From IMG/VR virus record IMGVR_UViG_3300033553_000052, positions 1,205 to 65,204 of that record: a stretch of DNA of 64,000 nucleotides; one strand, given 5' to 3'. Positions 2,772 through 63,326 of the stretch are shown here, one piece after another. The position numbers and the translations under genes are program-made. A model generated the notes under the pieces. That model did no database searches. It saw only the letters and a list, made by a program, of their open reading frames with translations, and was not told where the DNA came from. This stretch comes from a virus (Duplodnaviria > Caudoviricetes). Numbering within the stretch: the first letter of the stretch is position 1; the number at the start of each line of letters is the position of its first letter.

Positions 2772-3088
2772 GTATCATCCAGCCTTACAACAGCAACCCC
2801 GTTCTGCCTAACTGGCTTGCCGAAGAGATCGTTAACGAGATCACCGACCCCAAGTATCAGAACCGTACCCACGGAACACGCTCGTGCCACAACGCGGGAT
2901 GCACCGGGCCACTGTGCAAGAAGTTCAACAAGGACAGACAGCGCGAGTGGTACAGAAAGCAAAACCCCCTGAAGGCCCACCCTCGTCCGGGTTCCAAAGA
3001 TCCAGCACTAGATAAGTTCCTTGACGAGGTTATTGCCGTCCATGTCACGGAGCGTCGCGCACGCACAGCACTAAGGCCCACAGGTTGA
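2768..3088 (+). CDS. hypothetical protein with HGT-x4-GC-x4-C metal-binding motif
   Basis: HGTRSCHNAGCTGPLC motif seen in small actinophage proteins; ATGA coupling. Confidence 0.7.
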   Translation: MSIIQPYNSNPVLPNWLAEEIVNEITDPKYQNRTHGTRSCHNAGCTGPLCKKFNKDRQREWYRKQNPLKAHPRPGSKDPALDKFLDEVIAVHVTERRARTALRPTG

Positions 3089-3089
3089 G

Positions 3090-3221
3090 ATGAAGACCTT
3101 CTTGATTCTTTTGATCGTACTATTTGGGCTAATACGAATTAACAACGACGACGCCTGCGAGTTATGCGGCGAAAGTACTGATGGCGACGCGCTATGTAAC
3201 AAGTGCGCCAATATCCTATAG
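3090..3221 (+). CDS. 43-aa membrane-anchored CxxC protein (not in ORF track)
   Basis: MKTFLILLIVLFGLIRINNDDACELCGESTDGDALCNKCANIL*; starts 1 nt after previous stop. Confidence 0.5.
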   Translation: MKTFLILLIVLFGLIRINNDDACELCGESTDGDALCNKCANIL

Positions 3222-3232
3222 ACAAAGAGAAT

Positions 3233-3280
3233 CAGGCCGGTACTAAGCGTGCGGACGCTAGTACCGGCCTGACCTCTTTA
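3233..3280. terminator. likely bidirectional terminator at convergence point
   Basis: CAGGCCGGTACTA...TAGTACCGGCCTG inverted repeat between convergent transcription units. Confidence 0.7.
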
Positions 3281-3612
3281 TACTCCAGGTTACGCGATGC
3301 CCTCGTGTGTCCCGTTTCAGAATACCAGCATAACTCACAATGCGAGCTCAGCCGCTTTGGGCAGCATGTGTGGCGGGAGGAACAAGCAAGAACTTCCCGA
3401 TACTGCACAATGCACCCGCGATGAGTTGATACTAGCCGGGGCGATAGCCTCAAGCGATCACCTGAAGTACTTGTTACCAGTGGTAGGGGACCGGCAACGT
3501 GCCGAGCCTACCACCGCGTACCCCCTGGGGCAAACGCCACGCCACCGCCACGCCACACTTCGACACGGCGCGAGCGTCGGTTCACCCCAGGGTTACAGCT
3601 GAGTTACTTGAT
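3280..3612 (-). ncRNA. candidate ~330-nt pseudoknotted structured RNA (RNA-A)
   Basis: At least 7 helices of 7-14 bp whose non-WC pairs are G.U only on the minus strand; no credible CDS; lies between a leftward operon and a terminator. Confidence 0.6.
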
Positions 3613-3621
3613 CTGAATTAA

Positions 3622-3819
3622 CTATGTAATACCGTTAGACTTCCTAGTGAGCGCCAGCATACAAGGCCCACACATTTCGCCTTCGTTCTCGCTACTGAAC
3701 CAGCCGGGGTCTGCGTCCTCGTGATTAGGTGACGGCCACAGGTTGTCGATCAGAACGATAGGGTTATATACCTTGGCGTCTTCAGGCTTGACCGTAAAAC
3801 AGAAGTCACACTTCTTCAT
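3622..3819 (-). CDS. small zinc-finger-like hypothetical protein
   Basis: MKKCDFC...MCGPC; start 3819 preferred (GAGG RBS). Confidence 0.65.
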   Translation of the reverse strand: MKKCDFCFTVKPEDAKVYNPIVLIDNLWPSPNHEDADPGWFSSENEGEMCGPCMLALTRKSNGIT

Positions 3820-4087
3820 GGGTCTCTTCCTTTGTGGCAGTCGCCGGGGCAACGAGGGCGTTGAGCATTCCCCATGCTGTCACGGTGGGCATATAGCGCT
3901 CGTCATCAATAACCGGGCCATTCGCCTCGTGCCAGTGCATCTCTGAACATATGCGATCCATCGCGTCAGTCTCGGGGCCGGCGAGTATGGCGGCGATCTT
4001 CTTTGCGGCCTCGTCGGCATCCTGATCAAAGTGGCCTCTAAAGTGGCGCAGATACTCAGCCGCTTCTTCTAACGCATCCTTAGTCAT
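3806..4087 (-). CDS. hypothetical protein
   Basis: Tightly packed leftward operon; AGGAGG RBS. Confidence 0.7.
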   Translation of the reverse strand: MTKDALEEAAEYLRHFRGHFDQDADEAAKKIAAILAGPETDAMDRICSEMHWHEANGPVIDDERYMPTVTAWGMLNALVAPATATKEETHEEV

Positions 4088-4299
4088 CGGTTCCTCCTAA
4101 CGTTGCGCCTAGCATGATCGTATGCCACATTGAGGCTTGCGTCTTTAATGTCGGCAACACTACTACCACTGCCGCCGGTTGTAAACAGTTCGAAGAACTC
4201 TGCTAGTTGCTCATCTGTTAGGTGGGTGATCTCTAGTTCGATAGCCGCACGCAGTATCTGCCGTCTAACTACCGTCTCGGGCTCTGGCTTATTACTCAC
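4084..4299 (-). CDS. hypothetical protein
   Basis: 4-nt overlaps with both neighbours. Confidence 0.7.
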   Translation of the reverse strand: MSNKPEPETVVRRQILRAAIELEITHLTDEQLAEFFELFTTGGSGSSVADIKDASLNVAYDHARRNVRRNR

Positions 4300-5464: not shown

Positions 5465-5742
5465 AGCCGCACCGCCCTGCGCAGGTCAGTTGCGAACGTG
5501 AGTACCCACGACGCTATATCAGCTGCCCTTTTAATTACAGCCTGCTCCGCCGCAGTCTCCAATGCACTAGCCTTCATGTCAGCCGCAAACAAATCCCACA
5601 GATGAGATTGTTCTTTCATGGAAACAGTTTTACTAGCCGCTAGCCACGCCAGTCTCACTTCGTTCTCAGTTGGTGTCGCTGGGTGCTTAGATGTGGTGTG
5701 TACCTTAAGCCAAGTTTTGTTTTGTGTTTCGTGATCAGTCAC
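5461..5742 (-). CDS. hypothetical protein, first gene of leftward operon
   Basis: Immediately downstream of the promoter at 5791-5819. Confidence 0.65.
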   Translation of the reverse strand: MTDHETQNKTWLKVHTTSKHPATPTENEVRLAWLAASKTVSMKEQSHLWDLFAADMKASALETAAEQAVIKRAADIASWVLTFATDLRRAVRL

Positions 5743-5790
5743 GTCATGCCCCTATCTGCTTGTTCTTCTTGCGTCCGCACGTACCCGTGT

Positions 5791-5819
5791 AGCATACCAC
5801 GCGCGTACCCCCGTGTCAA
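5791..5819 (-). promoter_or_regulatory. sigma70/HrdB-type promoter for leftward operon
   Basis: TTGACA-17nt-TATGCT with extended -10 TG. Confidence 0.8.
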
Positions 5820-5914
5820 GGCGGGATCTCTACGCACGCGTACTGGCGGCCATGTGTAGTCACACACAAGAACATACTTTCATATTTCTAAAACCGACTG
5901 CATTCTAAAGGTAT

Positions 5915-6380
5915 TGTGTCAACTGGGAAAACCCGCCAGCAAGCCAAAACAGTGACGTATTGTTGACGATACCGTTGACGAAATTATTTGGAGCATAAGC
6001 CCTGGTAGATGTCACAATGGGGCGCCGACGATGGCCCGAAAATGGATTTCGTCATCGCCAAAGCCAAAGTTTGGAAAAGCGTCTGTATTGTTTTGATGAG
6101 TCTGGCTGTATGACGAACCAGGTGCTTTTCTGTGGGGGGACACTAACTTCGGTACGTCGGCGTTGACACATAGAGAAATACTATATATGTTCTTATACTA
6201 TCTCTATATCTACTAGGTACTATACACATAATAATATCGTCAACGGTTATGGCAACAATACGGCAACGATACGTCAACGGACTTACTAGGATGATGACGA
6301 TACACGACGACTTCCCTATGGATGCCACTCGTGGGAACGTACAGGGGGGACGGGACATTCAAGACTTCGGTTGACATAAC
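5915..6380. other. candidate replication origin / control region
   Basis: Repeated GTTGAC/GTCAAC motifs; 28-bp imperfect inverted repeat 5954-5981/6237-6264; AT-rich tract ~6170-6238; between divergent operons. Confidence 0.5.
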
Positions 6381-7023
6381 GACTGTGACACTACGCATTT
6401 GGTAGCAGATCACGTAGCGATCGACTTTGCAAAAGAAGAGTCTTGAAAAATTTGATATGTACCGAGGCGTGGAAGAGGGAAGCGGGGGCCGGGGGGTCCG
6501 GATTTTATTGAACCTTTACCATTCTTTGCCAAACCTTTAATTCCCCGTTGGTGCCGATAATGAACGCTATCGGCACAATTACGCAACGCGGGCATTGCGT
6601 AATTCGATCTTTTGTTGCGACTCGCGACATATGTTTGCATGCCGCGCCTAGTAGGACAGGACCGGGCGAGCACGCTCCAGCGCGCGCCACGTCACGCCGC
6701 GCGCCGATATCGCGCGTACGGGCCTCCCGTGTGCCTCCTGGTGTGATCGTGCCCGGAAAACATTCCATGCCAGTACGCGGCAACCTAGCGCCTCTTGGTA
6801 AAAGTTTGACAAGTCGGGTAAAGGTTTGGTATTTGGGGTAGACACGCCTCCCCGGAAGTGATAGTCTTTGGTTATAACAAAATATAGACGCTAGGGAATT
6901 GACGCGGACGCCTCGCTCAGGCGGGGACGCATGTTCTCGGTTAGTCTGTTTTGTTATATCGCACGAAATTTTTACGGCACGACAAGACAGGTGTACTCTC
7001 ACTCTAGTAACGGAGGCTTGGTC

Positions 7024-7164
7024 ATGGTAACGGCAGGTGAGCTCTCACGAGCAATCATTGAAGCGTGCTTTATGGGGAACCCGCGAGGGCTCTCGCCAGA
7101 CCAGGTCTCCGTTCTAATCGCGGAGCACTTGGTAATCTTCGAACAGGAGGGCTCTCATGCCTAG
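7024..7164 (+). CDS. small hypothetical protein
   Basis: GGAGG RBS before ATG 7024 (shorter than track ORF 6931). Confidence 0.55.
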   Translation: MVTAGELSRAIIEACFMGNPRGLSPDQVSVLIAEHLVIFEQEGSHA

Positions 7165-7405
7165 TATCAGCACACATCTCGACCAGGACCTGGCTAACGG
7201 CCAGGCTGTACAGGTGCACTCTCAGGTAACGCTCGACGGCGCGACTGGAGTAGTAGTGCGCATGCGAGGAGCGCTAGGCTGGTTCCTGTATTTCGATCAG
7301 GAGAGCTCTAGTAAGTGTGGAGAGGTGGCTCGGTGTTTCGACACAAAGGCTGACCTCGACGACCACATGAGGCTCTGGCTAGCGCGAGGCACGTTCGACA
7401 TCTAA
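7157..7405 (+). CDS. hypothetical protein
   Basis: RBS in repeat AACAGGAGGGCTCTCA (7142-7157). Confidence 0.7.
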   Translation: MPSISTHLDQDLANGQAVQVHSQVTLDGATGVVVRMRGALGWFLYFDQESSSKCGEVARCFDTKADLDDHMRLWLARGTFDI

Positions 7406-7420
7406 CAGGAGGGCTCTCAA

Positions 7421-7564
7421 ATGAGGATTCACATGTGCGGGCCGTGGTCTATTCCTGACGGCCATGGCGGGCGAGTGTGTAGCGCGTGCGGGACTCCGGT
7501 CCCGGTACTGGCTAACACGAGGCGCGAAACGATGACGGGGAAGGCTCCGTCTCGACCATTCTAG
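7421..7564 (+). CDS. 47-aa Cys-containing protein (not in ORF track)
   Basis: MRIHMCGPW...VCSACG...SRPF*; preceded by second copy of AACAGGAGGGCTCTCA (7404-7419). Confidence 0.6.
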   Translation: MRIHMCGPWSIPDGHGGRVCSACGTPVPVLANTRRETMTGKAPSRPF

Positions 7565-7573
7565 AAATAGGAC

Positions 7574-7602
7574 TTGACGCGCTAGTCTAGACATGCTAGG
7601 CT
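7574..7602 (+). promoter_or_regulatory. cassette promoter
   Basis: TTGACG-17-TAGGCT, extended -10 TG, followed by AACTAGGGAGG RBS. Confidence 0.75.
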
Positions 7603-7629
7603 AGGCTCAACGAACTAGGGAGGCGCATC

Positions 7630-7821
7630 ATGCGCAAGGGCTGGAAGAGTAACGCTGTCGGCGGCGTCTATACGCGGACGATGGCTGGGGCTGACTATGA
7701 GGTCATGTATGTCGGCGCGGGCCAGTGGGATGTCATTAATGATGTCTACACAATTTTCGCTAGTTTCGACTCGGCTGACGCGGGTATGCTAGCGGCGGAA
7801 CGCCACGCGGCGCAAAACTAG
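7630..7821 (+). CDS. small early hypothetical protein
   Basis: Own promoter and RBS. Confidence 0.75.
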   Translation: MRKGWKSNAVGGVYTRTMAGADYEVMYVGAGQWDVINDVYTIFASFDSADAGMLAAERHAAQN

Positions 7822-7863
7822 GACTTGACAACGACTAGCGGGCATGATAGGCTAGTACCAACG
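7820..7863 (+). repeat. 44-bp direct repeat copy 1 containing promoter TTGACA(7825)-17-TAGGCT(7848)
   Basis: AGGACTTGACAACGACTAGCGGGCATGATAGGCTAGTACCAACG, identical at 8108-8151. Confidence 0.9.
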
Positions 7864-7889
7864 GAACAACGAAAACTAGGGAGCGAGAA

Positions 7890-8102
7890 ATGTTCAAGGT
7901 ACGCGTGACATGGGAGGGCGAGGTGCTGTTCGAGCGCGACCTCGAGAGTGAGATTCTAGCGGCGGCGCTGTATGACAGCACTGTCTCGGACTATCGGCGC
8001 CGCGATGACGACGTGAGCGAGGGCGTGAGCGTGTCACTGATCGACACCGAGAGCGATAACGTCCGCGCCGAAGGGACCTTCGCTGGAGGGCGATTCTTCT
8101 AG
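7890..8102 (+). CDS. small acidic early hypothetical protein
   Basis: Flanked by the two 44-bp repeats; AACTAGGGAG RBS. Confidence 0.75.
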   Translation: MFKVRVTWEGEVLFERDLESEILAAALYDSTVSDYRRRDDDVSEGVSVSLIDTESDNVRAEGTFAGGRFF

Positions 8103-8107
8103 AAAAC

Positions 8108-8151
8108 AGGACTTGACAACGACTAGCGGGCATGATAGGCTAGTACCAACG
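8108..8151 (+). repeat. 44-bp direct repeat copy 2 containing promoter TTGACA(8113)-17-TAGGCT(8136)
   Basis: Identical to 7820-7863. Confidence 0.9.
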
Positions 8152-8176
8152 AACAAACGAAACTAGGGAGCATGAA

Positions 8177-8401
8177 ATGGCAAGGGTGAGCAAGGTCAGG
8201 ACTGACAAGGTTCGCGTGGGAGACTTCTACATGGAGCACTTCGTGAACGGGTACGGGTCTGGCGCACAGGGAGAGGTGATCTCCGTCACACAGACGCGGT
8301 GGAATGCCACCATGAAAGAGGGGCTGTTTGTCATCATGCTCAAGGGAGGGCTCCCTGTCGATGCAATGGGAGGCAACCTCGTCTGGGTGGAGCGCGACTG
8401 A
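8177..8401 (+). CDS. small early hypothetical protein
   Basis: AACTAGGGAG RBS after promoter repeat. Confidence 0.75.
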   Translation: MARVSKVRTDKVRVGDFYMEHFVNGYGSGAQGEVISVTQTRWNATMKEGLFVIMLKGGLPVDAMGGNLVWVERD

Positions 8402-8628
8402 TGGCGACACGCGGCACGAGCCGAGCGTATATCGACGCAGGCGAGCACGAACAGGAGAAGGCGCGCCGAGCCTATAGCGAGGCAGACTGGGCGCGCTGGG
8501 CGGCAGGCGAGGCATACGCGAACGGCAACGATCTCGAGGGTATCGCGTACGGGAGGCTGGCTCTCCAGTACACAATCGAGGGCAACCTCCACCACGAGCG
8601 GCACCGTAAAGTGCAGGCAAAGGGCTAG
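8401..8628 (+). CDS. small hypothetical protein (MATRGTS...)
   Basis: TGATG coupling to upstream gene; start 8401 preferred over track start 8299. Confidence 0.65.
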   Translation: MATRGTSRAYIDAGEHEQEKARRAYSEADWARWAAGEAYANGNDLEGIAYGRLALQYTIEGNLHHERHRKVQAKG

Positions 8629-8656
8629 TAAAGTTTGGTTAATCTAGGCAGTCGCC

Positions 8657-8685
8657 TTGACTTCCTAGGTCAGCCATGCTAGACT
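8657..8685 (+). promoter_or_regulatory. cassette promoter
   Basis: TTGACT-17-TAGACT, extended -10 TG. Confidence 0.7.
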
Positions 8686-8773
8686 AGAAACACAGCGGGA
8701 CGAAAACTAGACAGGCTCCATACGCGGACGCGCCTCTCCGGAGACGACGCAGGAATCTATCGAGGTCAGAATG

Positions 8774-8802
8774 TTGACAAGTCGCGCTAGGTGTGATAGA
8801 CT
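8774..8802 (+). promoter_or_regulatory. cassette promoter
   Basis: TTGACA-17-TAGACT, extended -10 TG. Confidence 0.8.
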
Positions 8803-8837
8803 AGTAACAACAGCACAAACTAGGGAAGAAGGGTATC

Positions 8838-8972
8838 ATGTACGAGACCTGCGTCGCATGTGGCGAGCCGGTAGACTACTGCCAGGGCGGGCACGGAGCA
8901 CCGTGTGAGTCCTGCAACGGGTACGAGCGCGGCCACGAGGCAGACTGCCCCGAGGCGAAGGTCAAGGGCTAG
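8838..8972 (+). CDS. 44-aa Cys/His-rich protein (not in ORF track)
   Basis: MYETCVACGEPVDYCQGGHGAPCESCNGYERGHEADCPEAKVKG*; downstream of promoter 8774. Confidence 0.65.
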   Translation: MYETCVACGEPVDYCQGGHGAPCESCNGYERGHEADCPEAKVKG

Positions 8973-9002
8973 TAAAGCCCTAGCAAATTCTTGACAAGTG
9001 AG

Positions 9003-9031
9003 TTGCAATATCCGGCCAGCCATGGTAGGCT
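9003..9031 (+). promoter_or_regulatory. cassette promoter
   Basis: TTGCAA-17-TAGGCT, extended -10 TG, then AACTAGGGAGG RBS. Confidence 0.7.
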
Positions 9032-9067
9032 GGCAACATGACAAGCGAGAAACTAGGGAGGTAGAAA

Positions 9068-9478
9068 ATGCTCGACACGGCAACAGACGCGGATAGACTC
9101 CGCGAAACGATGGAGGCGCTCGACGCCAGCATGCTGACGCGACAGCCACAGTACGCACGGCTGACCATAGCGCTCGGCTTAACCGTCGAGGGCTTCGTGC
9201 CAGGCGAGATCTTTGCGGAGACCTTCATGATGGAGGCGCTCGAGGCGCTAGCGAGGCAGGGCAGGTACGTGGTGCCAGCCTGGGCAGGCGTGAACGGCGA
9301 GCGCTGTGTAATCTCGGACTTCATCCTGGATCAGCACTTGACAGCAGGCGAAATTTCTGCTAGACTGAACGTGTCAGTCAGTACGGTACGCAGGCACATC
9401 GGAGCGCCGGACACGGTACTCGGTCGCACCCAAGGCTGGCGTGTTTCCACCATGCTAGCGCGTATGGTAAAGGAATAG
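9068..9478 (+). CDS. HTH DNA-binding protein
   Basis: C-terminal LTAGEISARLNVSVSTVRRH...PD...GRTQGW (AlpA/excisionase-like HTH pattern). Confidence 0.7.
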   Translation: MLDTATDADRLRETMEALDASMLTRQPQYARLTIALGLTVEGFVPGEIFAETFMMEALEALARQGRYVVPAWAGVNGERCVISDFILDQHLTAGEISARLNVSVSTVRRHIGAPDTVLGRTQGWRVSTMLARMVKE

Positions 9479-9497
9479 TAAAAGTTTCCGATTCGAC

Positions 9498-9526
9498 TTG
9501 ACAACCGAACCGGGGAGGTGTAGGGT
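9498..9526 (+). promoter_or_regulatory. promoter for 9647 gene and downstream RNA region
   Basis: TTGACA-17-TAGGGT. Confidence 0.75.
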
Positions 9527-9646
9527 AGTTATTAGTAGGGAACAAGCACACAAACGAAAACGGCGAACGGACCAGCCTACGGGTAACGTGCCACACAAAC
9601 AATCGAGACACAAGTCTCAACAAGCCTTCGAAAGGGGCGCAGTATC

Positions 9647-10474
9647 ATGGCAAAGACTGCCAAGCAGGACGAGATCGAAGTTGAAGTGACCGAGGTCGAG
9701 GTTGCCGAAGAGGCGATTGACCTCACCGCGTTCGAGACTGCCGTTAGCGCGGCAGTGGCTGGCGCCGACGAGAACACGGGCGAGGTGCCCGAGGTCGGCG
9801 TGGCGGCAGTGCGGGACGCGTACCAGGCTCTGCCCGGTATCAAGGCGAAGAACGCCGCGAAGGCGAGCCTGAGCGACCAGCTCAAGCAGCACCTGGCTGA
9901 CATGAAGATTGTGGAAGCCCGGAGCGTCATGGTCCTGACCGAGCGGGCAACGGTGGCGGGCAAGTCGAGCGCTCCGAAGCGCGAGGTTGACTACCAGGAG
10001 CAGTTCGAGTCGAAGGTTGCGACCCTCACCCTCGCCCTGTACCTGGCCCAGAAGCAGGTCCCCGAAGGCGTCGATGCCGAGGCCGGAATTGCCAAGGCAA
10101 CCTCCCTCGCCGGAGAGGCGTTCCCCGAGGCCCTCGACGTCATGGCCGATGAGGACTCCGAGACGGAGAGCGCGCTGATCAAGGCGGCTGTCAAGTTGGC
10201 AACCTCGAAGGCCCGCAAGGGTGGCACCCGAGTCTCGTCCGGCGAGCGCCGGGACCTCGGAGCGCACATCTCGGAAGCGTTCGACTCGGTTGAGTCGGGC
10301 GTGTTCCTGAGCGTCGCGGCCATCAAGAAGTTCAAGGGGAGCGTGTACGGCGACGACCAGCCCTCGGCTGGTGCCATCACGAACCGTCTCGAGCCGAAGT
10401 CGGGCAAGCCTACCACGATCGACGGCGTGACTGTCGAGCACCGTGACGGCAAGCTGGGCGCGGTCAAGAACTAG
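9647..10474 (+). CDS. Ala/Glu/Lys-rich protein, probably highly expressed; possible C-terminal winged helix
   Basis: Strong G/C third-position bias; C-terminal QPSAGAITNRL motif. Confidence 0.8.
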   Translation: MAKTAKQDEIEVEVTEVEVAEEAIDLTAFETAVSAAVAGADENTGEVPEVGVAAVRDAYQALPGIKAKNAAKASLSDQLKQHLADMKIVEARSVMVLTERATVAGKSSAPKREVDYQEQFESKVATLTLALYLAQKQVPEGVDAEAGIAKATSLAGEAFPEALDVMADEDSETESALIKAAVKLATSKARKGGTRVSSGERRDLGAHISEAFDSVESGVFLSVAAIKKFKGSVYGDDQPSAGAITNRLEPKSGKPTTIDGVTVEHRDGKLGAVKN

Positions 10475-10479
10475 CACGA

Positions 10480-10650
10480 ACCAGCCCCTCCTAGCCAAGG
10501 CCTGAGGTCTTGTGCCAGGCTAGGAGGGGCGGGGCGGTGAGACTCGGTTAGCCGAGGTCTCTAGGCTCAAAGCCAGCCGTCCCGCGCAGTAAGAAAGCCG
10601 GAGGTGCATCATGCCCTGACTGCCAGCAAGACTGCAAACATAACTGAATA
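10480..10650 (+). ncRNA. structured non-coding segment (RNA-B 5' part)
   Basis: 13-bp stem GCCCCTCCTAGCC/GGCTAGGAGGGGC, then a multibranch GGGGCGGT/GCCGTCCC enclosing two hairpins; no ORF. Confidence 0.45.
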
Positions 10651-10655
10651 GTTTG

Positions 10656-10775
10656 GTGAGCGTGCGTTCTCATAAACAACTCAACCCCCCCTGAGCTGAC
10701 CTACCGAGGACGTAAGGCGGCGACTAGTCTCCATAGACACAGTAGCCAGGCAGGTTCGAGTCCTGCCACGCTCGC
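10656..10775 (+). ncRNA. tRNA-like element 1 (non-canonical)
   Basis: T-arm GGCAGG-TTCGAGT-CCTGCC (10749-10767); 3' strand ACGCTCGC pairs with GTGAGCGT (10656-10663); enlarged core, no standard anticodon loop, no encoded CCA. Confidence 0.6.
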
Positions 10776-10813
10776 GAGTTACATCAAGACTTTTCCCTCG
10801 TCCGGGAAGAGGT

Positions 10814-10904
10814 TAGGCCGAGCGAGGTTCACAATCTACCCGTGAACTGTCGCGAGGAGCCATCTCCCTAGGGTGGCAGTCAGGTTCGATTCCTGACCGG
10901 CCTA
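10814..10904 (+). ncRNA. tRNA-like element 2 (non-canonical cloverleaf)
   Basis: 7-bp acceptor TAGGCCG/CGGCCTA; long arm GGTTCAC/GTGAACT; arm GCCATC-TCCCTAG-GGTGGC; T-arm GTCAGG-TTCGATT-CCTGAC. Confidence 0.65.
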
Positions 10905-11005
10905 CGCGGAACAAGCAACAAGCAAGAGGCTGGACATTTTCTAGCGGGTAGGCTAGTACCAGGCTCGACTTGACAAACAACCAGAGTTAGGGTAAAGGTG
11001 CAATC

Positions 11006-21960: not shown

Positions 21961-22544
21961 TGGCGAAGCGACAGTACCCAGGCATGAGGACCAGTGTGCA
22001 ACGGGCCAACAAAGTGTCCGAGAATAAGTTGGCTTGGGTAAAGATCAATACGATTACAATGTCGTTCTTCAGGCAAGACGGAGAGTTCCTTGAGGGGCTT
22101 CCCGAGTCAGAAGATATCAGAGCAGAGTATCGTGGATACACTGAAGATGATGGGGACCAGATGGTTCTCACGGTTGAGACATATAACTCATTGTCGTCCA
22201 TCCCGCTTAGCGAGATGACGTACAATGAACTCATGACACTCAAGATGTTTGTGTCAACAGCAATTGATGAAGCATTGCCTGTCGCGAGTGTGCGTGACAG
22301 GCTGTCACAGGAGGCATTAGATGATTACGGCGACGATTCTAACGCAAGAATCTATAGATCAGTTCCTGAACTATTTGTCCGAAAGGGGAAGGGCGGCGAA
22401 TACAATCAGAGCATATGGGAGCGATCTGCGGGGTCTTATGCAATGGTCAAGTTCCCCGGTAGAGCAAGACAACTTCCAGACGATGACGGCGCGGTGGCTC
22501 AACGACACGAGGGCGACGGCATCCCCGAAGACGACTTGTCGTAG
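21960..22544 (+). CDS. hypothetical protein overlapping recombinase gene by 224 nt
   Basis: TAATG coupling to upstream gene; fills the gap before the recombinase. Confidence 0.65.
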   Translation: MAKRQYPGMRTSVQRANKVSENKLAWVKINTITMSFFRQDGEFLEGLPESEDIRAEYRGYTEDDGDQMVLTVETYNSLSSIPLSEMTYNELMTLKMFVSTAIDEALPVASVRDRLSQEALDDYGDDSNARIYRSVPELFVRKGKGGEYNQSIWERSAGSYAMVKFPGRARQLPDDDGAVAQRHEGDGIPEDDLS

Positions 22545-23139
22545 GCTTGTATCCGCGAAGTCATACGCCAAGTGGTCTGGGATTGGAAACATTCTCGATG
22601 ACTACAAGGCCCCGACGCCTGGACGAGCAATGCCGCACCCGCTCCCCGAAGGTATCGAGGGCGTGAAGCTCATGTGTCAGTCCACTAACGACCCCAGCAA
22701 GCGCGCTTTGTTTGCGTTGCAGGGAATGGCTGGCCTACGAGTAAGTGAGGCGCGATCACTGCACAGCGACAACATTGATATCCAAGACATGATGCTTACT
22801 GTGCGCGGTAAGGGTGACAAGACGCGGGCTGTTCCAATATCCAACTCGGCGTGGCCCTTCGTTCTCGATGCGTACAAGGCGTCACTAGAATCTGGCATGC
22901 CGCTTGTTAACCTATCCGACCGTGGGGCACGTAAGGCAGTGACGGCGGCGGGACATGCGCTAGGATTCAAGCGTGACATTTCCAGCCACGACCTGCGTGC
23001 GACTGGCGCCACCCACCTGTACAACCAGACCAAGGACATCAGGGTTGTGCAAGAGTTTCTAGGTCACGCAAGTTCGGTTACAACGCAAGTCTATACCGGC
23101 ATCTCAATAGACGCAATGAGGAAAGGACTCGAGTTCTAA
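22321..23139 (+). CDS. tyrosine recombinase (XerC/D-like)
   Basis: N-terminal FLNYL.ERG..NTIRAY..DL; catalytic GLRVSE, GKGDK, HDLR, LGH and TQVY; CAGGAGG RBS. Confidence 0.9.
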   Translation: MITATILTQESIDQFLNYLSERGRAANTIRAYGSDLRGLMQWSSSPVEQDNFQTMTARWLNDTRATASPKTTCRRLVSAKSYAKWSGIGNILDDYKAPTPGRAMPHPLPEGIEGVKLMCQSTNDPSKRALFALQGMAGLRVSEARSLHSDNIDIQDMMLTVRGKGDKTRAVPISNSAWPFVLDAYKASLESGMPLVNLSDRGARKAVTAAGHALGFKRDISSHDLRATGATHLYNQTKDIRVVQEFLGHASSVTTQVYTGISIDAMRKGLEF

Positions 23140-55950: not shown

Positions 55951-57135
55951 CTACAGGGTGAGGTCCCAGGTGTACGTCTTGTCGAGGTGCAGGAAGACCG
56001 GGAAGGCCTTGATGCCAGTACCTCGGTCGGTGCCCCACGGGTCGGGTCCGGTGTCCTTCTCCCACTCGTAGAAGCCGGGCGACCAGTTGCCCTCGGGGTG
56101 CGGCGACGTGAGCGTCTTGGCGAAGCCAATCTGCGTGTCGTCGAACTCGTTGAGCTGGGCCTCATCGGGCAGGAAGATCACGCGGTTCTCAGGCATGAAC
56201 CTGTTGTTGGTGATGTTCTGTGCGCCGACTGCACGAGTCCGGTAAACCGAATCGTACACGATGAAGTCGATGCCAGTCTGCTCCTTGATGAGGTCAATGG
56301 CGTACTGCGGGCCATAACCAGGAATCAAGTAGTAGGGATCACCCGAGACAACGCCACCAGTTCCGTCTCCAACGAATCCGGCCTTTGTGCCGAACTTCGA
56401 CGCGCGAGCCATGCGAAGCAGGGCCTTCTTGGAAATGATTGCGCGGTTGGTGTGAACGCCGTAGAGGTCGTACATCGTCTCATCGACGGCAATGATGTCG
56501 TTGATCGGATCGTGAGTCGCAGCGGCGTAGGTGCCAGACGCAGGAGCCTGCGCGGACTGTCCACCGGGGCGACCGTAGTCAACCGAGAACTTGATCTTGC
56601 CATCGTTGTACGCGAGTACACCGGCGGAGAGGCCCGTCATGATGAGCCACTCAAGTCGGTTGTCGAGCTTGCGGCGACGCAGGGCATCGTCGCGAGCAAT
56701 CTTGGACGCGAAGTCCTCGGTCTGCGACGTGACGGTCAGTGGGAAGTTGTTACCCGCCGCCAGCTCCGCGAGGCGTGCGTACTCGCGATAGCGAGCAACG
56801 TCCGATGCGGAGTAGTGGTCCTTGAGTGCCCAGTCGATGACGGACGCGCGGCCCTGGCCGAGTGCCATGTCATCCTTCTGAGCAAGCTCCGACTCTGCAT
56901 CTTCGGCGCGTGCGGGAGCAAGACCGGAGGTCAGTCCCTGCACGTAGTCGAAGATCACTTCGTCGGTAGCGACCTCTTGGAACGGTGCGACCACGGACAG
57001 GCCGATGTGGTCCTGAGGCTTTTCGATCTCTCGAATCTGCCCGAGGGCGACCTCCTTGCGCACCAGTCGATCGAGCGGCTGAGGAGCCATGAACTGCTGG
57101 CTCCCGCCACCCGGAGTGTGCTGGGTGATAGTCAC
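55951..57135 (-). CDS. major capsid protein (lambda gpE-like)
   Basis: 394 aa, strong codon bias; RLEW...G......VDYG.P and DP..D motifs; follows decoration protein. Confidence 0.85.
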   Translation of the reverse strand: MTITQHTPGGGSQQFMAPQPLDRLVRKEVALGQIREIEKPQDHIGLSVVAPFQEVATDEVIFDYVQGLTSGLAPARAEDAESELAQKDDMALGQGRASVIDWALKDHYSASDVARYREYARLAELAAGNNFPLTVTSQTEDFASKIARDDALRRRKLDNRLEWLIMTGLSAGVLAYNDGKIKFSVDYGRPGGQSAQAPASGTYAAATHDPINDIIAVDETMYDLYGVHTNRAIISKKALLRMARASKFGTKAGFVGDGTGGVVSGDPYYLIPGYGPQYAIDLIKEQTGIDFIVYDSVYRTRAVGAQNITNNRFMPENRVIFLPDEAQLNEFDDTQIGFAKTLTSPHPEGNWSPGFYEWEKDTGPDPWGTDRGTGIKAFPVFLHLDKTYTWDLTL

Positions 57136-57147
57136 TTTTCTAGCTCC

Positions 57148-57618
57148 TTAGCTGAAGAGGATTGACAGGGTCTTCTGGCCAACAAGGCCAGCTGCTGTGG
57201 TATTGCCAAGGGCGCCACGCACACCAGAGATGCGCTCGATGCACCAAGCCTGAACAACGCGAGCTTCAACCGTAACGGCGATCTGCTCATCGTGCTCCAG
57301 GAGCTGCCACGGAAGGAAGGTATCGTTGATACCCACGATGTTCGTGAGGGTCTGACGACCGTCGAGTGCGTTGGCATCGTAGGGGCCTACGAGTCCAACA
57401 TCTGCAGCCGTTGAAGTTCCAACGGCCGAGGTGATCTTTGCCATGACTTCGCCAGACTGCAGAATCTTCTGCGTCGAGCCGTCAATGGTCTCCGCTGCGA
57501 CTGAAGATGCGGCAACCGTGAAACTTTCGGTCTTGACATCTCGAGTCGAACGAAGATACGTGTTCTTACCGAACGGGGTGTACGCCGCAGGCGCCGGACC
57601 CCTGTCGAAAGAAGGCAT
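57148..57618 (-). CDS. head decoration protein
   Basis: L.SG.VMAKIT...GPY...A.DGRQ...GI motif; between scaffold and capsid. Confidence 0.75.
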   Translation of the reverse strand: MPSFDRGPAPAAYTPFGKNTYLRSTRDVKTESFTVAASSVAAETIDGSTQKILQSGEVMAKITSAVGTSTAADVGLVGPYDANALDGRQTLTNIVGINDTFLPWQLLEHDEQIAVTVEARVVQAWCIERISGVRGALGNTTAAGLVGQKTLSILFS

Positions 57619-60548: not shown

Positions 60549-63326
60549 TCATTTATGCCAAGATGGGAACTGCGGCCCTTGGGGCGTTGGAGCCGTTGGG
60601 GGTATCGGCGCGCTTAGCCCAGATAGTCCGGCAAGCAGTCCGCCATAGCCTCCGTCAAGAGCTCCGCTAGAGCCGATACTAAAGGGCTCTCTTTTATCTG
60701 AAGCAGTCGGCTCACCATACCCGGTTCTAGCGACGCGCGCAACGCGACGATACTGCCGGTCGCCCATTAGGGTATAGACCACGCCTGCCAAACAGTCTGC
60801 CACGTCCTTCGATCCACCTTGCGGGTGATCGACCTTGTGCCCAGACTCTGAAAGTTCACGCAGTTCCTTGTTGGCTATGTTCACCTTTGTTACGTCGCCA
60901 CGATTGAGGAACGTAATATACTCTGGCCACTCTACACGACGCTCGTAGATAGCCTCGCGTAGATCGTAGTACGGCGCGGTAGTCTTATCCACTGACAAGT
61001 AGTCGGACGGGATCTTCCTCTTGTTGAGCTGCTGCCTCGTGTCAGTGCTGTTGTGAACGAAAACTCCGGACTCAAGTGCGAAGTTCTGATGCGTCTCTAT
61101 TGACAGGTCGTACACGTCCTCAACATCACCCATGCGCACGACCTTTACGACCTTATGGTTGTTAGCGGCGATGTGCATCTTCCTAAACTCAGCCCAACCT
61201 CTAAACCCATTCTCGCGCAGACGAGCGTAAATAATATCCTGAGACCAGCCGGTCTGGAGGGTCACCTCGCGACGGGATAAATGAGCATACGCACGTAAGT
61301 CTTCAATCGTTACATCGAGCCTACGTCGTCGCGCATCTAAGCCAGTACGCTCTGTGTTGGACTTCGAGATAGCAGTACCAACTGATTCTCTGCGCTCATC
61401 GGTCCAAAATTCAGAACGGTTGTGATGTGCATTATGTTCGCTGCGCAAGATAACATCAAGGTTACTCGGATCATTGTTTAGCTTATTGTGATCCTTGTGG
61501 TGACGAATGAATCCTTCAGGCGCTTCGCCGGCAATCGCTCTGTGAGTGTACTGCCAGCGCAACGAGGTTGCAGAGGTCGGCTGCGCGATCTGCTCGTAAC
61601 TTTCAATTATCTGGCGATACAGTGGCATTAAGGACTGGCCACTTAGTAAATCTTGCGCCTCGACATAAGAACCGTTACGCAGCATGAACCTATGATCAGG
61701 CGTGCATCTAATTACCTCACCATTATCAAGGTGAACCTCAAGCACTTCCTTGGTGCTTGTTTTCCACGCCTTCTGAAGTTTACCAGCAGTTATCTTCCCG
61801 GTAGCACTATCAACAGTGTAAGTACTCACGCCACCCTCGGGATAGAGTTCTGCAAGTTCCTTCATTGTCAAAACCCTGCCATCAAACAATGGCACCCGCG
61901 TATCTCCCGTGAGACACTGGAACCCGTCCATGGTGACCTTCGCGAGCTTGAACTTTCTTTCGTCCGCTATCTCATACAAGATGCGACGAATGTCTCCGAG
62001 GATGATCTCTGTACCTGGTGCAGCTTTGATTCGCATAAGGAAGTCAAAGGTAATGTAAGGCTTAAGTTCGTCTTCGATTTCAACTAGACCACTCACGTGA
62101 CCCATCGCGAGGCCCAATGCGTCTCCGTTTGCGGACACGGCAATGTCGATATGTGCGACTCTCTTTATTGTGTCGGTAGCAACTACCTCGCGATGCAGTG
62201 AAGGATGCACCGGGTCCGACCCCACGGGGACGTACGCGGGCGATTCCTGGTCGCGGTGCGAAGCCTCCCAGCGTTCGTGGCATTCGTCTATGCGATCAAC
62301 CAGGGAGATGAACGGCGAGTCTGCAGCCGGAGGAATACCGGCCAGGTCGCGTAGCGCCTTCTCGGGGTTGTTCTTAAAGCTCGCGAGGTACGACAGTGGA
62401 ACCTCAATAATGAATGCGCTATCAACAAGCCCCGCCGCCAACTTGGGGACCACGGACTTACGTCTCGTGTCATAGTAGAAAGACTTTCGATTACCATCTT
62501 CGTCCGTGAACTTATCCCACCCCAGAGATTCCCAGATAGCCATCGTCACAACGAGCGCTTCCGGGTCCTTCTCGAGCTCTTCTTTTTTCTTTTGCATGAA
62601 GCCAGACGTCTTCTTCATCTGGCCGATTACAATAAGAAGTCCACGGTGCTGTCCGGTTGTCGCGTCGTTAAACCGAGAGTCAATTCTTGCGTGGATTGTG
62701 TCATACCCGGACTCCGCAAAATCTTTGTTGGCGGTCTGCTTATGCGAGTCACCCTCATCAAGGATGCCGCCAAGAATGTTATACCCCTCGAACGATGTCT
62801 CCGCAGAGTTTCCTGGCAACACCCAGATATCTTTTGGAAACCTCAGTTGATTCTTAAAGTCCTTATCATACATGCAGTTTCGCTTAAACCAGGGCGAGTG
62901 CTCGATGCGAGCCTTGATGTCCCCGAACAGAACTTCCTTCGCCTGGTTCTCGGTCGTTGACATGAGCATGAAAGCGATACGTGAGCCGTCCATTAGTCCG
63001 AAGTACTGCTGGGGATTCTTGAGACAACTTACCCAGTGAACCATGTACGGGATTGCGATACTCGCGAACGTGGTCTTGCCGATGCCGATGCCGCCTGTAA
63101 AGATAGCGCGCCGTACAGCCGAGACGGTCTTTGGGTTGATCGTCCCACCAAAGATTCCAATGAGCGCACGCTTAACTCCGGTCCTAACCTGATCCTCAAT
63201 GTTGAGGTACTCGGGGCCTAGAAACTCTTCGATAGTTGCCGGACGCTCGGTGAACTGTGGGTTATCCTTTAGGAACTCCAGTTCACCTTCTAGTGCGCGA
63301 ATATCGTACTTAGTGCTACCTACCAT
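60549..63326 (-). CDS. terminase large subunit with intein
   Basis: Walker A GGIGIGKT, Walker B ILDE, RNase H-like HIDIA and DHP..GSKDVAD. Confidence 0.9.
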   Translation of the reverse strand: MVGSTKYDIRALEGELEFLKDNPQFTERPATIEEFLGPEYLNIEDQVRTGVKRALIGIFGGTINPKTVSAVRRAIFTGGIGIGKTTFASIAIPYMVHWVSCLKNPQQYFGLMDGSRIAFMLMSTTENQAKEVLFGDIKARIEHSPWFKRNCMYDKDFKNQLRFPKDIWVLPGNSAETSFEGYNILGGILDEGDSHKQTANKDFAESGYDTIHARIDSRFNDATTGQHRGLLIVIGQMKKTSGFMQKKKEELEKDPEALVVTMAIWESLGWDKFTDEDGNRKSFYYDTRRKSVVPKLAAGLVDSAFIIEVPLSYLASFKNNPEKALRDLAGIPPAADSPFISLVDRIDECHERWEASHRDQESPAYVPVGSDPVHPSLHREVVATDTIKRVAHIDIAVSANGDALGLAMGHVSGLVEIEDELKPYITFDFLMRIKAAPGTEIILGDIRRILYEIADERKFKLAKVTMDGFQCLTGDTRVPLFDGRVLTMKELAELYPEGGVSTYTVDSATGKITAGKLQKAWKTSTKEVLEVHLDNGEVIRCTPDHRFMLRNGSYVEAQDLLSGQSLMPLYRQIIESYEQIAQPTSATSLRWQYTHRAIAGEAPEGFIRHHKDHNKLNNDPSNLDVILRSEHNAHHNRSEFWTDERRESVGTAISKSNTERTGLDARRRRLDVTIEDLRAYAHLSRREVTLQTGWSQDIIYARLRENGFRGWAEFRKMHIAANNHKVVKVVRMGDVEDVYDLSIETHQNFALESGVFVHNSTDTRQQLNKRKIPSDYLSVDKTTAPYYDLREAIYERRVEWPEYITFLNRGDVTKVNIANKELRELSESGHKVDHPQGGSKDVADCLAGVVYTLMGDRQYRRVARVARTGYGEPTASDKREPFSIGSSGALDGGYGGLLAGLSGLSAPIPPTAPTPQGPQFPSWHK
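61050..61916 (-). mobile_element. 289-aa intein with HNH homing endonuclease in terminase nuclease domain
   Basis: FQ/CLTGDT start; CTPDHRF block B; HHKDHNKLNNDPSNL...H...H HNH; VYDL...HQNF...VFVHN/S end. Confidence 0.95.

What the first reader, a model, noticed from the sequence alone, without database searches (positions are those of the whole stretch)
3280..3612. Unannotated ~330-nt multi-pseudoknot RNA at the end of the leftward operon (RNA-A)
Seen: on the minus strand this ORF-free gap forms a dense helix network. Helices (plus-strand coordinates): 3422-3436/3324-3337 (14 bp, 1 bulge), extended by 3414-3419/3342-3347 and 3400-3406/3361-3367; 3580-3592/3523-3535 (13 bp); 3507-3514/3480-3487. 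Three long-range crossing pairs: 3595-3603/3347-3355, 3551-3558/3368-3375 and 3468-3475/3381-3388. The non-WC pairs are G.U only when read on the minus strand, the strand of the upstream operon, and a terminator follows at 3233-3280. Inference: a large structured ncRNA in the spirit of phage ROOL/GOLLD-class RNAs. I cannot assign it to a named family. Some pairings may be mutually exclusive.
Basis: partly seen in the sequence, partly recalled or inferred. Interest (0 to 1): 0.85.

Follow-up and report, generated by a model that had tools for sequence, protein, structure and literature searches.

The report
Hairpin-rich 3' tail of phage operon
A 400-base non-coding gap between two converging phage operons holds one exceptionally stable strand-specific RNA hairpin, two weaker ones and a two-way terminator, which looks like an ordinary structured 3' untranslated tail, not a demonstrated large complex RNA.

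Summary
The minus strand folds far better than the plus strand: -150.9 against -118.2 kcal/mol, z -4.25 against -1.29.

The fold is three hairpins in series plus a terminator, not a knotted network:
- SL1, 3523-3592
- SL2, 3475-3520
- SL3, a 191-nt rod at 3280-3470
- a two-way terminator, 3224-3279

Only SL1 stands out. It is the most stable of 21,312 70-nt folds in the window, with z -6.08 and 7 G.U pairs.

The whole-region z is not unusual for this genome. Four control windows gave -3.76 to -4.53.

The three "crossing" helices are 3 of 36 possible helices of 8 bp or more. Shuffles give 22 ± 5.6.

The gap scores as non-coding by codon usage, has no Pfam match and no Rfam match.

No homologue turned up anywhere, so covariation cannot be tested. 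Relatives have only 20-147 nt at this junction. No RNA data exist.

Verdict: most likely a structured 3' UTR with a stabilising hairpin, specific to this lineage. The ROOL/GOLLD-like reading is unsupported but not excluded. Interest is low.

The parts
3622..3822 (-). Last gene of the leftward operon: a 66-aa Cys-rich small protein. The ORF listing gives 3622-3852 from a TTG start.
   Evidence: ORF. Codon score +0.22 bits/codon. The ATG at 3822 preceded by AAGGAAG was read from the sequence. No PHROG, Pfam or IMG/VR relative.
3593..3621 (-). 29-nt A+T-rich linker between the stop codon and SL1.
   Evidence: Sequence. No sigma-70-like promoter was found in 2900-4200.
3523..3592 (-). SL1: a 70-nt hairpin of 29 bp (18 G-C, 4 A-U, 7 G.U). 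It is the most stable local RNA fold in the window.
   Evidence: -48.4 kcal/mol, z -6.08, 0/200 shuffles as good. The plus strand gives -30.5, z -2.72. It has the lowest MFE of 21,312 70-nt folds; the next is -43.4. The bases after the stem are GGGUACGCGG, so there is no U tract.
3535..3556 (.). Exact tandem repeat of 11 nt x 2 (GTGGCGTGGCG on the minus strand). It forms the 3' arm of the upper part of SL1.
   Evidence: No other exact copy in the window and none in IMG/VR for the 22-mer.
3475..3520 (-). SL2: a 46-nt hairpin of 19 bp (2 G.U), 2 nt after SL1.
   Evidence: -26.3 kcal/mol, z -4.03. The plus strand gives -21.6, z -2.71.
3280..3470 (-). SL3: a 191-nt irregular rod-like hairpin of 66 bp (10 G.U). 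Its significance is doubtful.
   Evidence: z -2.72 with 3/200 shuffles as good on the minus strand; z -1.96 with 7/200 on the plus strand. The genome-regressed z is -2.04, and 11 of 298 sampled windows are as low. The MFE frequency is 0.105, reached by 1 of 298.
3224..3279 (.). Two-way terminator hairpin: a near-perfect palindrome of 24-25 bp, with an A tract and a U-rich tract forming its outer pairs.
   Evidence: z -9.30 on the minus strand and -8.50 on the plus strand. Inverted repeat I1 is 14 nt and 100% complementary. It starts 3 nt after the stop of the 3090-3221 gene. The simple terminator scan did not call it.
3090..3221 (+). Last gene of the rightward primase/helicase operon (43 aa).
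   Evidence: ORF. Codon score +0.15.

Best explanation
The gap 3222-3621 is the long structured 3' untranslated tail of the short leftward operon (3622 to about 5867).

Proposed mechanism (inferred):
- RNA polymerase leaving the last gene transcribes SL1, SL2 and SL3, and stops at the two-way terminator 3279-3224. That is the only hairpin here followed by a U-rich run.
- SL1, with SL2, starts 30 nt after the stop codon and has no U tract. It therefore acts as a very stable barrier to 3'-to-5' exonucleases, or as a double-strand-specific RNase site, and not as a terminator. It sets the stable 3' end and the half-life of the operon mRNA.
- SL3 is mostly spacer.

Shown: the hairpins, their predicted stability and rank, their strand specificity, and the non-coding nature and position of the gap.

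Inferred: transcription, its end point, and the stabilising or processing role.
For: - Position. The terminator hairpin abuts the rightward operon's stop codon (3221 to 3224) and lies 340 nt from the leftward operon's stop.
- Strand. The structure is minus-strand- and RNA-specific. SL1 and SL2 together have 9 G.U pairs and no A.C 1x1 mismatch on the minus strand.
- Rank. SL1 is first of 21,312 70-nt folds.
- Company. At least 6 of the other 16 top hairpin clusters in this genome also sit just downstream of a gene or at a convergent junction.
- Non-coding. 6/6 gap ORFs have negative codon scores, -0.04 to -0.43 bits/codon, against 9/9 positive neighbours. There are no Pfam or PHROG hits, and the 101-aa ORF finds only itself among 5.8 billion proteins.
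- Termination. Mycobacterial RNA polymerase needs a U tract to terminate (PMC3993855; title and start of abstract seen in the listing). This argues that SL1 and SL2 are not terminators, if the host is an actinobacterium.
Against: - No expression data of any kind. Only two DNA runs, which may be the source of this DNA, hold the region. They show no variants, and the one RNA run laid gave nothing.
- No homologue, so no evidence of conservation.
- In 14 of 26 related loci the same convergent junction is visible with a gap of 147 nt or less, or with the flanking ORFs overlapping. None of the 26 has a comparable gap there (crude ORF map). The element is therefore dispensable in this phage group and could be a recent insertion or scar.
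- SL3's energy is unremarkable.
- The whole-region z is matched elsewhere in the genome.
- SL1 differs from this phage's other gene-end hairpins, which are near-perfect Watson-Crick palindromes of 13-18 bp.
- The host is unknown.
Confidence: 0.5

Rival explanations
1. Apart from the two-way terminator, the gap is functionless DNA. It would be a recombination scar, a decayed gene or a recently acquired fragment, and its predicted folds would lie in the tail of what this genome gives by chance.
For: - The whole-region z is matched by 4 control windows, and the regressed z of -3.03 is close to the next-best -2.91 among 636 windows.
- SL3 is at z -2.04 against the genome.
- The crossing helices are within chance.
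- Relatives lack the segment.
- No homologue was found.
- The GC content is 0.576 against 0.549 for the window and about 0.52 in the flanking genes, which fits a foreign origin.
Against: - SL1 ranks first of 21,312 folds, is 5 kcal/mol beyond the strongest terminator windows, and is 18 kcal/mol better on the transcribed strand.
- 9 G.U against 0 A.C in SL1 and SL2.
- A six-frame tblastn against 29 related loci found no gene remnant; best E 0.33.
- Compact phage genomes rarely keep 340 nt of junk. This last point is general knowledge, not tested here.
Confidence: 0.25
2. One reading: a discrete, large, specifically folded non-coding RNA of about 330-400 nt with tertiary contacts, doing a job of its own during infection, in the manner of ROOL, GOLLD or other large phage-associated RNAs.
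For: - The fold is minus-strand-specific, with z -4.25.
- The ensemble is well defined: the centroid nearly equals the MFE, and SL3's MFE frequency of 0.105 is reached by 1/298 windows.
- There is an excess of possible helices, 36 against 22 ± 5.6.
- The GC content is above its surroundings.
- Actinophages are known to make abundant stable non-coding RNAs from non-coding parts of leftward early operons (PMC5712189; passages read).
Against: - No Rfam match.
- No multi-way junction; the fold is three serial hairpins.
- Each proposed pseudoknot helix competes with nested helices and is individually expected by chance.
- No homologue, hence no covariation.
- No tRNA genes in the window.
- No promoter-like site.
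- The covariance model of SL1+SL2 finds nothing in the relatives.
Confidence: 0.12
3. A DNA-level element next to the primase/helicase genes, such as a replication origin or a protein-binding site, using the exact 11-bp x 2 tandem repeat as iterons.
For: - An exact 11-nt tandem repeat, about one helical turn, at 3535-3556.
- It lies about 750 nt downstream of the primase and helicase genes.
Against: - Only two copies, and no further copies in the window.
- The region is G+C-rich, not A+T-rich.
- Folds with DNA parameters are not significant.
- The G.U bias points to RNA.
- Relatives with the same replication genes lack the segment.
Confidence: 0.06
4. The gap encodes a protein: the 101-aa plus-strand ORF 3297-3602, or a small minus-strand ORF.
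For: Open frames of 101, 73, 73, 40, 32 and 30 aa exist.
Against: - All six have negative codon scores, like 105 spurious ORFs (mean -0.18).
- No Pfam hit at threshold and no PHROG hit.
- The 101-aa ORF finds only itself.
- The plus-strand ORF starts after the terminator and has no Shine-Dalgarno sequence (read from the sequence).
Confidence: 0.03

Closest known systems
Stabilising or processing hairpins in 3' UTRs at operon ends (REP-type stabilisers; lambda sib retroregulation through RNase III). Recalled from general knowledge, not from a call.
   Same: - Very stable hairpins just downstream of the last stop codon, on the transcribed strand and upstream of the true terminator.
- Placed at the end of a leftward phage operon, as sib is.
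   Different: - No sequence relation was tested or claimed.
- SL1 is unusually long (29 bp), G.U-rich and built on a tandem repeat.
- No cleavage or stability data exist for it.
Two-way intrinsic terminators at convergent gene junctions
   Same: 3224-3279 is a near-perfect palindrome with an A tract and a U-rich tract on its flanks. It sits at the convergent junction, as the short junction gaps in relatives also suggest.
   Different: - The U run is interrupted (UUCUCUUUGU on the minus strand, CCUCUUUAUACU on the plus strand).
- The consensus scan did not call it.
Abundant stable non-coding RNAs of Cluster A mycobacteriophages (L5, D29, StarStuff), made from the ~500-bp non-coding region downstream of Pleft (PMC5712189; passages read)
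   Same: - An actinophage-type genome.
- A non-coding stretch several hundred bases long, with no ORF conserved or longer than about 30 codons, belonging to a leftward operon.
   Different: - Those RNAs come from the 5' end of the operon and are shown by RNA-seq and Northern blots.
- Here the stretch is at the 3' end and has no expression data.
- There is no sequence similarity to any record in the phage collection. That L5 and D29 are in that collection is my assumption, not checked.
ROOL and GOLLD large ornate RNAs (Rfam; bioRxiv 10.1101/2024.12.08.627333, seen only as a search listing with the start of its abstract)
   Same: A large predicted structured RNA in a phage context.
   Different: - No match to any of the 4227 Rfam models.
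- Much simpler architecture.
- Sizes and tRNA association of ROOL and GOLLD are recalled, not tested. No tRNA genes occur in this window.

Membership tests
ROOL / GOLLD (Rfam large RNAs) | Match to the family covariance model | tested here: not met
   cmscan of the whole window at gathering score gave 0 matches. For 3150-3700 at E<=10 there were only 4 matches (two H/ACA and one C/D snoRNA models, one Brucella sRNA), all with E>1 and far below gathering score. That both families are in Rfam 15 is recalled.
ROOL / GOLLD (Rfam large RNAs) | Conserved multi-stem junctions and pseudoknots supported by covariation | not testable with these tools
   No homologue was found. The single-sequence MFE has no multi-way junction.
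Canonical intrinsic terminator | G+C-rich hairpin followed at once by a U tract (element 3224-3279) | tested here: inconclusive
   The hairpin is met strongly, with z -9.3 and -8.5. The U runs are short and interrupted. The consensus scan found 0 sites in 2900-4200; its limits are a loop of 3-8 nt and at least 5 T in a window of 8.
Canonical intrinsic terminator | U tract after the hairpin (elements SL1 and SL2) | tested here: not met
   The bases after SL1 are GGGUACGCGG and those after SL2 are ACAAGUACUU.
6S RNA | A rod of about 180-200 nt with a large central bubble, and a match to the Rfam 6S models | tested here: not met
   SL3 is a 191-nt rod but has only small internal loops and one 9-nt bulge. 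No 6S model matched at E<=10. The defining features are recalled.
tRNA / tmRNA | Detected by ARAGORN | tested here: not met
   0 genes in the window.
MITE or other DNA-level palindromic element | Long Watson-Crick inverted repeats that are equally good on both strands, and multiple copies | tested here: not met
   Outside the terminator, only inverted repeats of 12-13 nt at 77-85% complementarity. DNA folds have z -1.47 and -1.05. There is no second copy in the genome.

The most novel reading that the evidence does not exclude
The 3' tail (SL1-SL2-SL3-terminator, about 400 nt) is processed from the leftward operon transcript into a discrete, very stable, lineage-specific non-coding RNA that accumulates during infection. 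SL1, a G.U-rich 29-bp hairpin built on a GUGGCG repeat and the most stable fold in the genome, would act as a decoy or sponge for a host RNA-binding protein, RNase or defence sensor. That would make it a new orphan class of phage RNA.
Probability: 0.1. Interest if true: 0.55.

Novelty: new member of a known kind. Interest (0 to 1): 0.2.

Why it matters
If the ordinary reading holds, this is one more structured 3' UTR and terminator arrangement at a convergent junction in an uncultured actinophage-like virus, and it is useful only for annotation. It would matter more if SL1 or the whole tail proved to be a stable RNA species. Actinophage non-coding RNAs are known to be abundant and even toxic to the host, yet their functions remain unknown (PMC5712189, passages read). 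With no homologues and no cultured host, the question is not directly testable now.

The practical lesson concerns method. A dinucleotide-shuffle z of about -4 on a 333-nt window is reached at several unrelated places in this genome, including antisense to the capsid genes, so it should not be read as evidence for a structured RNA without a genome-wide control.

Tried and rejected
Homologue searches that found nothing:
- megablast and blastn against 50,697 phage records.
- blastn and nhmmer against 8 IMG/VR loci and 18 metagenome loci found through the helicase.
- BLAST over 5 whole related virus records; best E 0.03, an 18-nt chance match.
- The genome-contig scan with the helicase gave one irrelevant Bacteroidota locus at 29% identity.
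- The two adjacent small proteins have no IMG/VR relatives.
- Exact-motif scans of IMG/VR: a 17-mer gave 2 chance hits with no flanking similarity; an 18-mer and the 22-mer repeat gave 0.
- The covariance model R1 of SL1+SL2 found itself (134.8 bits), a 22.4-bit, E 0.23 plus-strand match at 3523-3627 that overlaps the modelled region, and a 14-bit, E 4.8 junction hairpin in L020. It found nothing in 5 whole relatives or in 3 loci from two Rhodococcus phages.
- The closest relative, L011 (helicase 82% identical), ends about where the gap would begin.
- L012 (60% identical) continues with plus-strand genes and has no gap.

Sequencing runs:
- No RNA holder is listed.
- Two DNA runs that may be the source of this DNA hold the region, with no variants.
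- X3 covers only 2703-2888.
- The RNA run X4 laid nothing.

Other ideas tested and dropped:
- Decayed gene: six-frame tblastn against the related loci, best E 0.33.
- Antisense target or paralogue within the phage: no shared or inverted word of 13 nt or more; 4 words of 12 nt against about 2.6 expected.

Calls that gave no result:
- The search of earlier findings was not open.

Not done:
- A covariance model of SL3 or of the full 333 nt (calibration time).
- Protein-database searches of the other gap frames (low prior, high shared cost).

Full report
**Context**

The window is bases 1205-65204 of a 65.2-kb IMG/VR virus record with direct terminal repeats. Its genes are those of a siphovirus:
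- a primase (25-774) and a helicase/primase (771-2771);
- a Cob-chelatase-like ATPase pair, a sliding clamp, RusA and a methyltransferase;
- an integrase-like gene, an endolysin, a tape measure protein, a major head protein, a portal and a terminase.

The helicase is 22-34% identical to those of Rhodococcus, Gordonia and Tsukamurella phages. An actinobacterial host is therefore likely but not shown.

Plus-strand genes run to 3221. A short leftward operon of small genes runs from about 5867 down to 3622. From about 6900 the genes are on the plus strand again, judged by codon score and base skews. The finding is the 400-nt gap 3222-3621 between these converging blocks.

The minus strand of 3280-3612 folds to -150.9 kcal/mol, with z -4.25 and 0/100 shuffles as good. 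The plus strand gives -118.2, with z -1.29 and 10/100. With DNA parameters neither strand is significant, at z -1.47 and -1.05. Whatever signal there is therefore depends on G.U pairs, that is, on RNA of the minus strand.

The MFE of 3222-3640 is not a network but four hairpins in series:

| Element | Coordinates | Size |
|---|---|---|
| SL1 | 3523-3592 | 29 bp |
| SL2 | 3475-3520 | 19 bp |
| SL3 | 3280-3470 | 191-nt irregular rod, 66 bp |
| Terminator palindrome | 3224-3279 | 25 bp |

**Is it more than chance?**

The answer differs by element.

*The whole region.*
- A composition-regressed scan of 636 windows of 333 nt puts the target 2nd (-3.03). The window that overlaps it ranks 1st (-3.44). 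The next values are -2.91, -2.88 and -2.86.
One of them is antisense to the head genes.
- The strand asymmetry ranks 8th of 318 raw, and 6th after composition correction.
- The 333-nt z-score therefore lies at the edge of this genome's own distribution, not beyond it.

*The crossing helices.*
- The minus strand can form 36 uninterrupted helices of 8 bp or more. Shuffles form 22.2 ± 5.6, and 1/60 reach 36.
- Part of the excess comes from a G/U-rich tandem repeat that pairs with many partners.

*SL3.*
- z is -2.72 with 3/200 shuffles as good on the minus strand, and -1.96 on the plus strand.
- Against 298 sampled genomic windows its energy is at z -2.04, with 11 as low. Its MFE frequency of 0.105 is reached by only 1 of 298.
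- That comparison flatters a window cut exactly at a closing stem.

*SL1 is the real outlier.*
- It folds to -48.4 kcal/mol with z -6.08 and 0/200 shuffles as good. The MFE structure makes up 45% of the ensemble. The plus strand gives only -30.5.
- It is the lowest of 21,312 folds of 70 nt across both strands. The next values are -43.4, one of them the terminator window at 3217-3286.
- It has 7 G.U pairs in 29 bp, and SL2 has 2 in 19. Neither has an A.C 1x1 mismatch, which would be the plus-strand equivalent of a G.U pair.
- Its upper 3' arm is an exact 11-nt x 2 tandem repeat at 3535-3556.

*The terminator.* The hairpin is confirmed, with z -9.3 and -8.5.

**Is the gap coding?**

Mechanical ORFs exist, of 101 aa on the plus strand and 73 aa on the minus strand among others.
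- All six score negative by a codon-usage log-odds trained on this phage's long genes: -0.04 to -0.43 bits/codon. That matches 105 spurious ORFs, which average -0.18.
- All nine neighbouring small genes score positive, at +0.05 to +0.33.
- There is no PHROG hit, and Pfam gave one sub-threshold chance match.
- The 101-aa ORF finds only itself among 5.8 billion proteins.
- Six-frame tblastn against the related loci finds no gene remnant.

**Known RNA families**

- No Rfam family reaches gathering score anywhere in the window.
- At E<=10 the region gives four chance matches with E>1.
- There are no tRNA or tmRNA genes.

**Homologues**

I found none. The searches and their outcomes are listed under Tried and rejected.

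Synteny is informative, though. By a crude greedy ORF map of 26 related loci:
- 14 show the same plus-to-minus junction downstream of the helicase, with a gap of 147 nt or less or with overlapping ORFs;
- 5 are ambiguous;
- 7 have no junction within the DNA fetched;
- none has a gap like this one.

The ~340 nt are therefore specific to this lineage. The closest relative, L011 (82% identical), ends just short of the site.

Public runs give no variants and no RNA.

**Interpretation**

The only hairpin with a U-rich 3' flank is 3224-3279. It sits 3 nt after the rightward operon's stop and 340 nt after the leftward operon's stop. SL1 and SL2 have no U tract. Mycobacterial RNA polymerase, at least, needs one to terminate (PMC3993855; title and start of abstract seen in the listing).

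The simplest reading is that leftward transcripts run through SL1, SL2 and SL3 to the two-way terminator. That gives a roughly 400-nt structured 3' UTR. In it SL1, with SL2, would be a stabilising or processing hairpin 30 nt after the stop codon, and SL3 would be largely spacer.

This phage's other strong hairpins are mostly at gene ends too, but they are 13-18-bp Watson-Crick palindromes. SL1 is therefore atypical among them.

I put this reading at about 0.5. The alternatives are:
- functionless scar apart from the terminator, 0.25;
- a DNA-level site using the 11-bp repeats, 0.06;
- coding, 0.03.

**Comparison with what is known**

It works like 3'-UTR stabiliser or processing hairpins and convergent-junction terminators (recalled general knowledge).

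Its closest actinophage precedent for a transcribed non-coding stretch is the abundant stable RNA made downstream of Pleft in L5, D29 and StarStuff (PMC5712189, passages read). That RNA is at the 5' end of its operon and is shown experimentally. There is also no sequence similarity to any record in the phage collection.

**Verdict**

The helices are real, the strand bias is real, and one hairpin is truly exceptional.
- The interpretation as a multi-pseudoknot ROOL/GOLLD-like RNA is not supported, but it cannot be excluded without homologues or RNA data.
- This is an ordinary kind of feature in an orphan sequence, and interest is low (0.2).

Noticed in passing
window 5700-11000: The leftward block is short. 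Codon scores and the AT/GC skews switch to plus-strand genes from about 6900. The real gene at 9617-10498 appears to be the plus-strand ORF 9647-10474 (0.53 bits/codon), not the minus-strand ORF (0.08). The A+T-rich stretch 5868-6142 (GC 0.455) is a likely divergent promoter region.
   Followed up: partly
window 10475-11005: This is the largest ORF-poor stretch of the window, about 500 nt between plus-strand genes. It has very strong hairpins: 10471-10540 folds to -41.7 kcal/mol, and 10480-10812 (+) has z -3.87.
   Followed up: no
window 56880-57212 (+): This stretch is antisense to the major head and decoration genes. It gives the lowest shuffle z seen here for a 333-nt window, -4.53. I used it only as a control.
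   Followed up: no
window 60549-63326 (-): The terminase large subunit is unusually long at 925 aa. It has an HNH endonuclease match at residues 588-642 and a helicase-like match at 470-566, which suggests an inserted or fused module.
   Followed up: no
window 3090-3221 (+) and 3622-3822 (-): Both genes that flank the gap encode very small Cys-rich proteins of 43 and 66 aa with paired CxxC motifs. The 43-aa protein has a sub-threshold double-zinc-ribbon match (E 0.0099, below the cut-off).
   Followed up: partly
L036 4371-6853 (Rhodococcus phage ReqiDocB7, record 68370-70852): A 2.48-kb stretch between gp098 and gp099, downstream of the helicase block, has no annotated feature. It holds only small ORFs and has no Rfam match at gathering score.
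   Followed up: partly
window 22321-23139 (+): A short (272 aa) tyrosine-integrase-like gene lies in the middle of the replication and early region. Whether the phage is temperate was not examined. The genome-contig scan gave one locus, a Bacteroidota MAG with a 29%-identical partial match.
   Followed up: no
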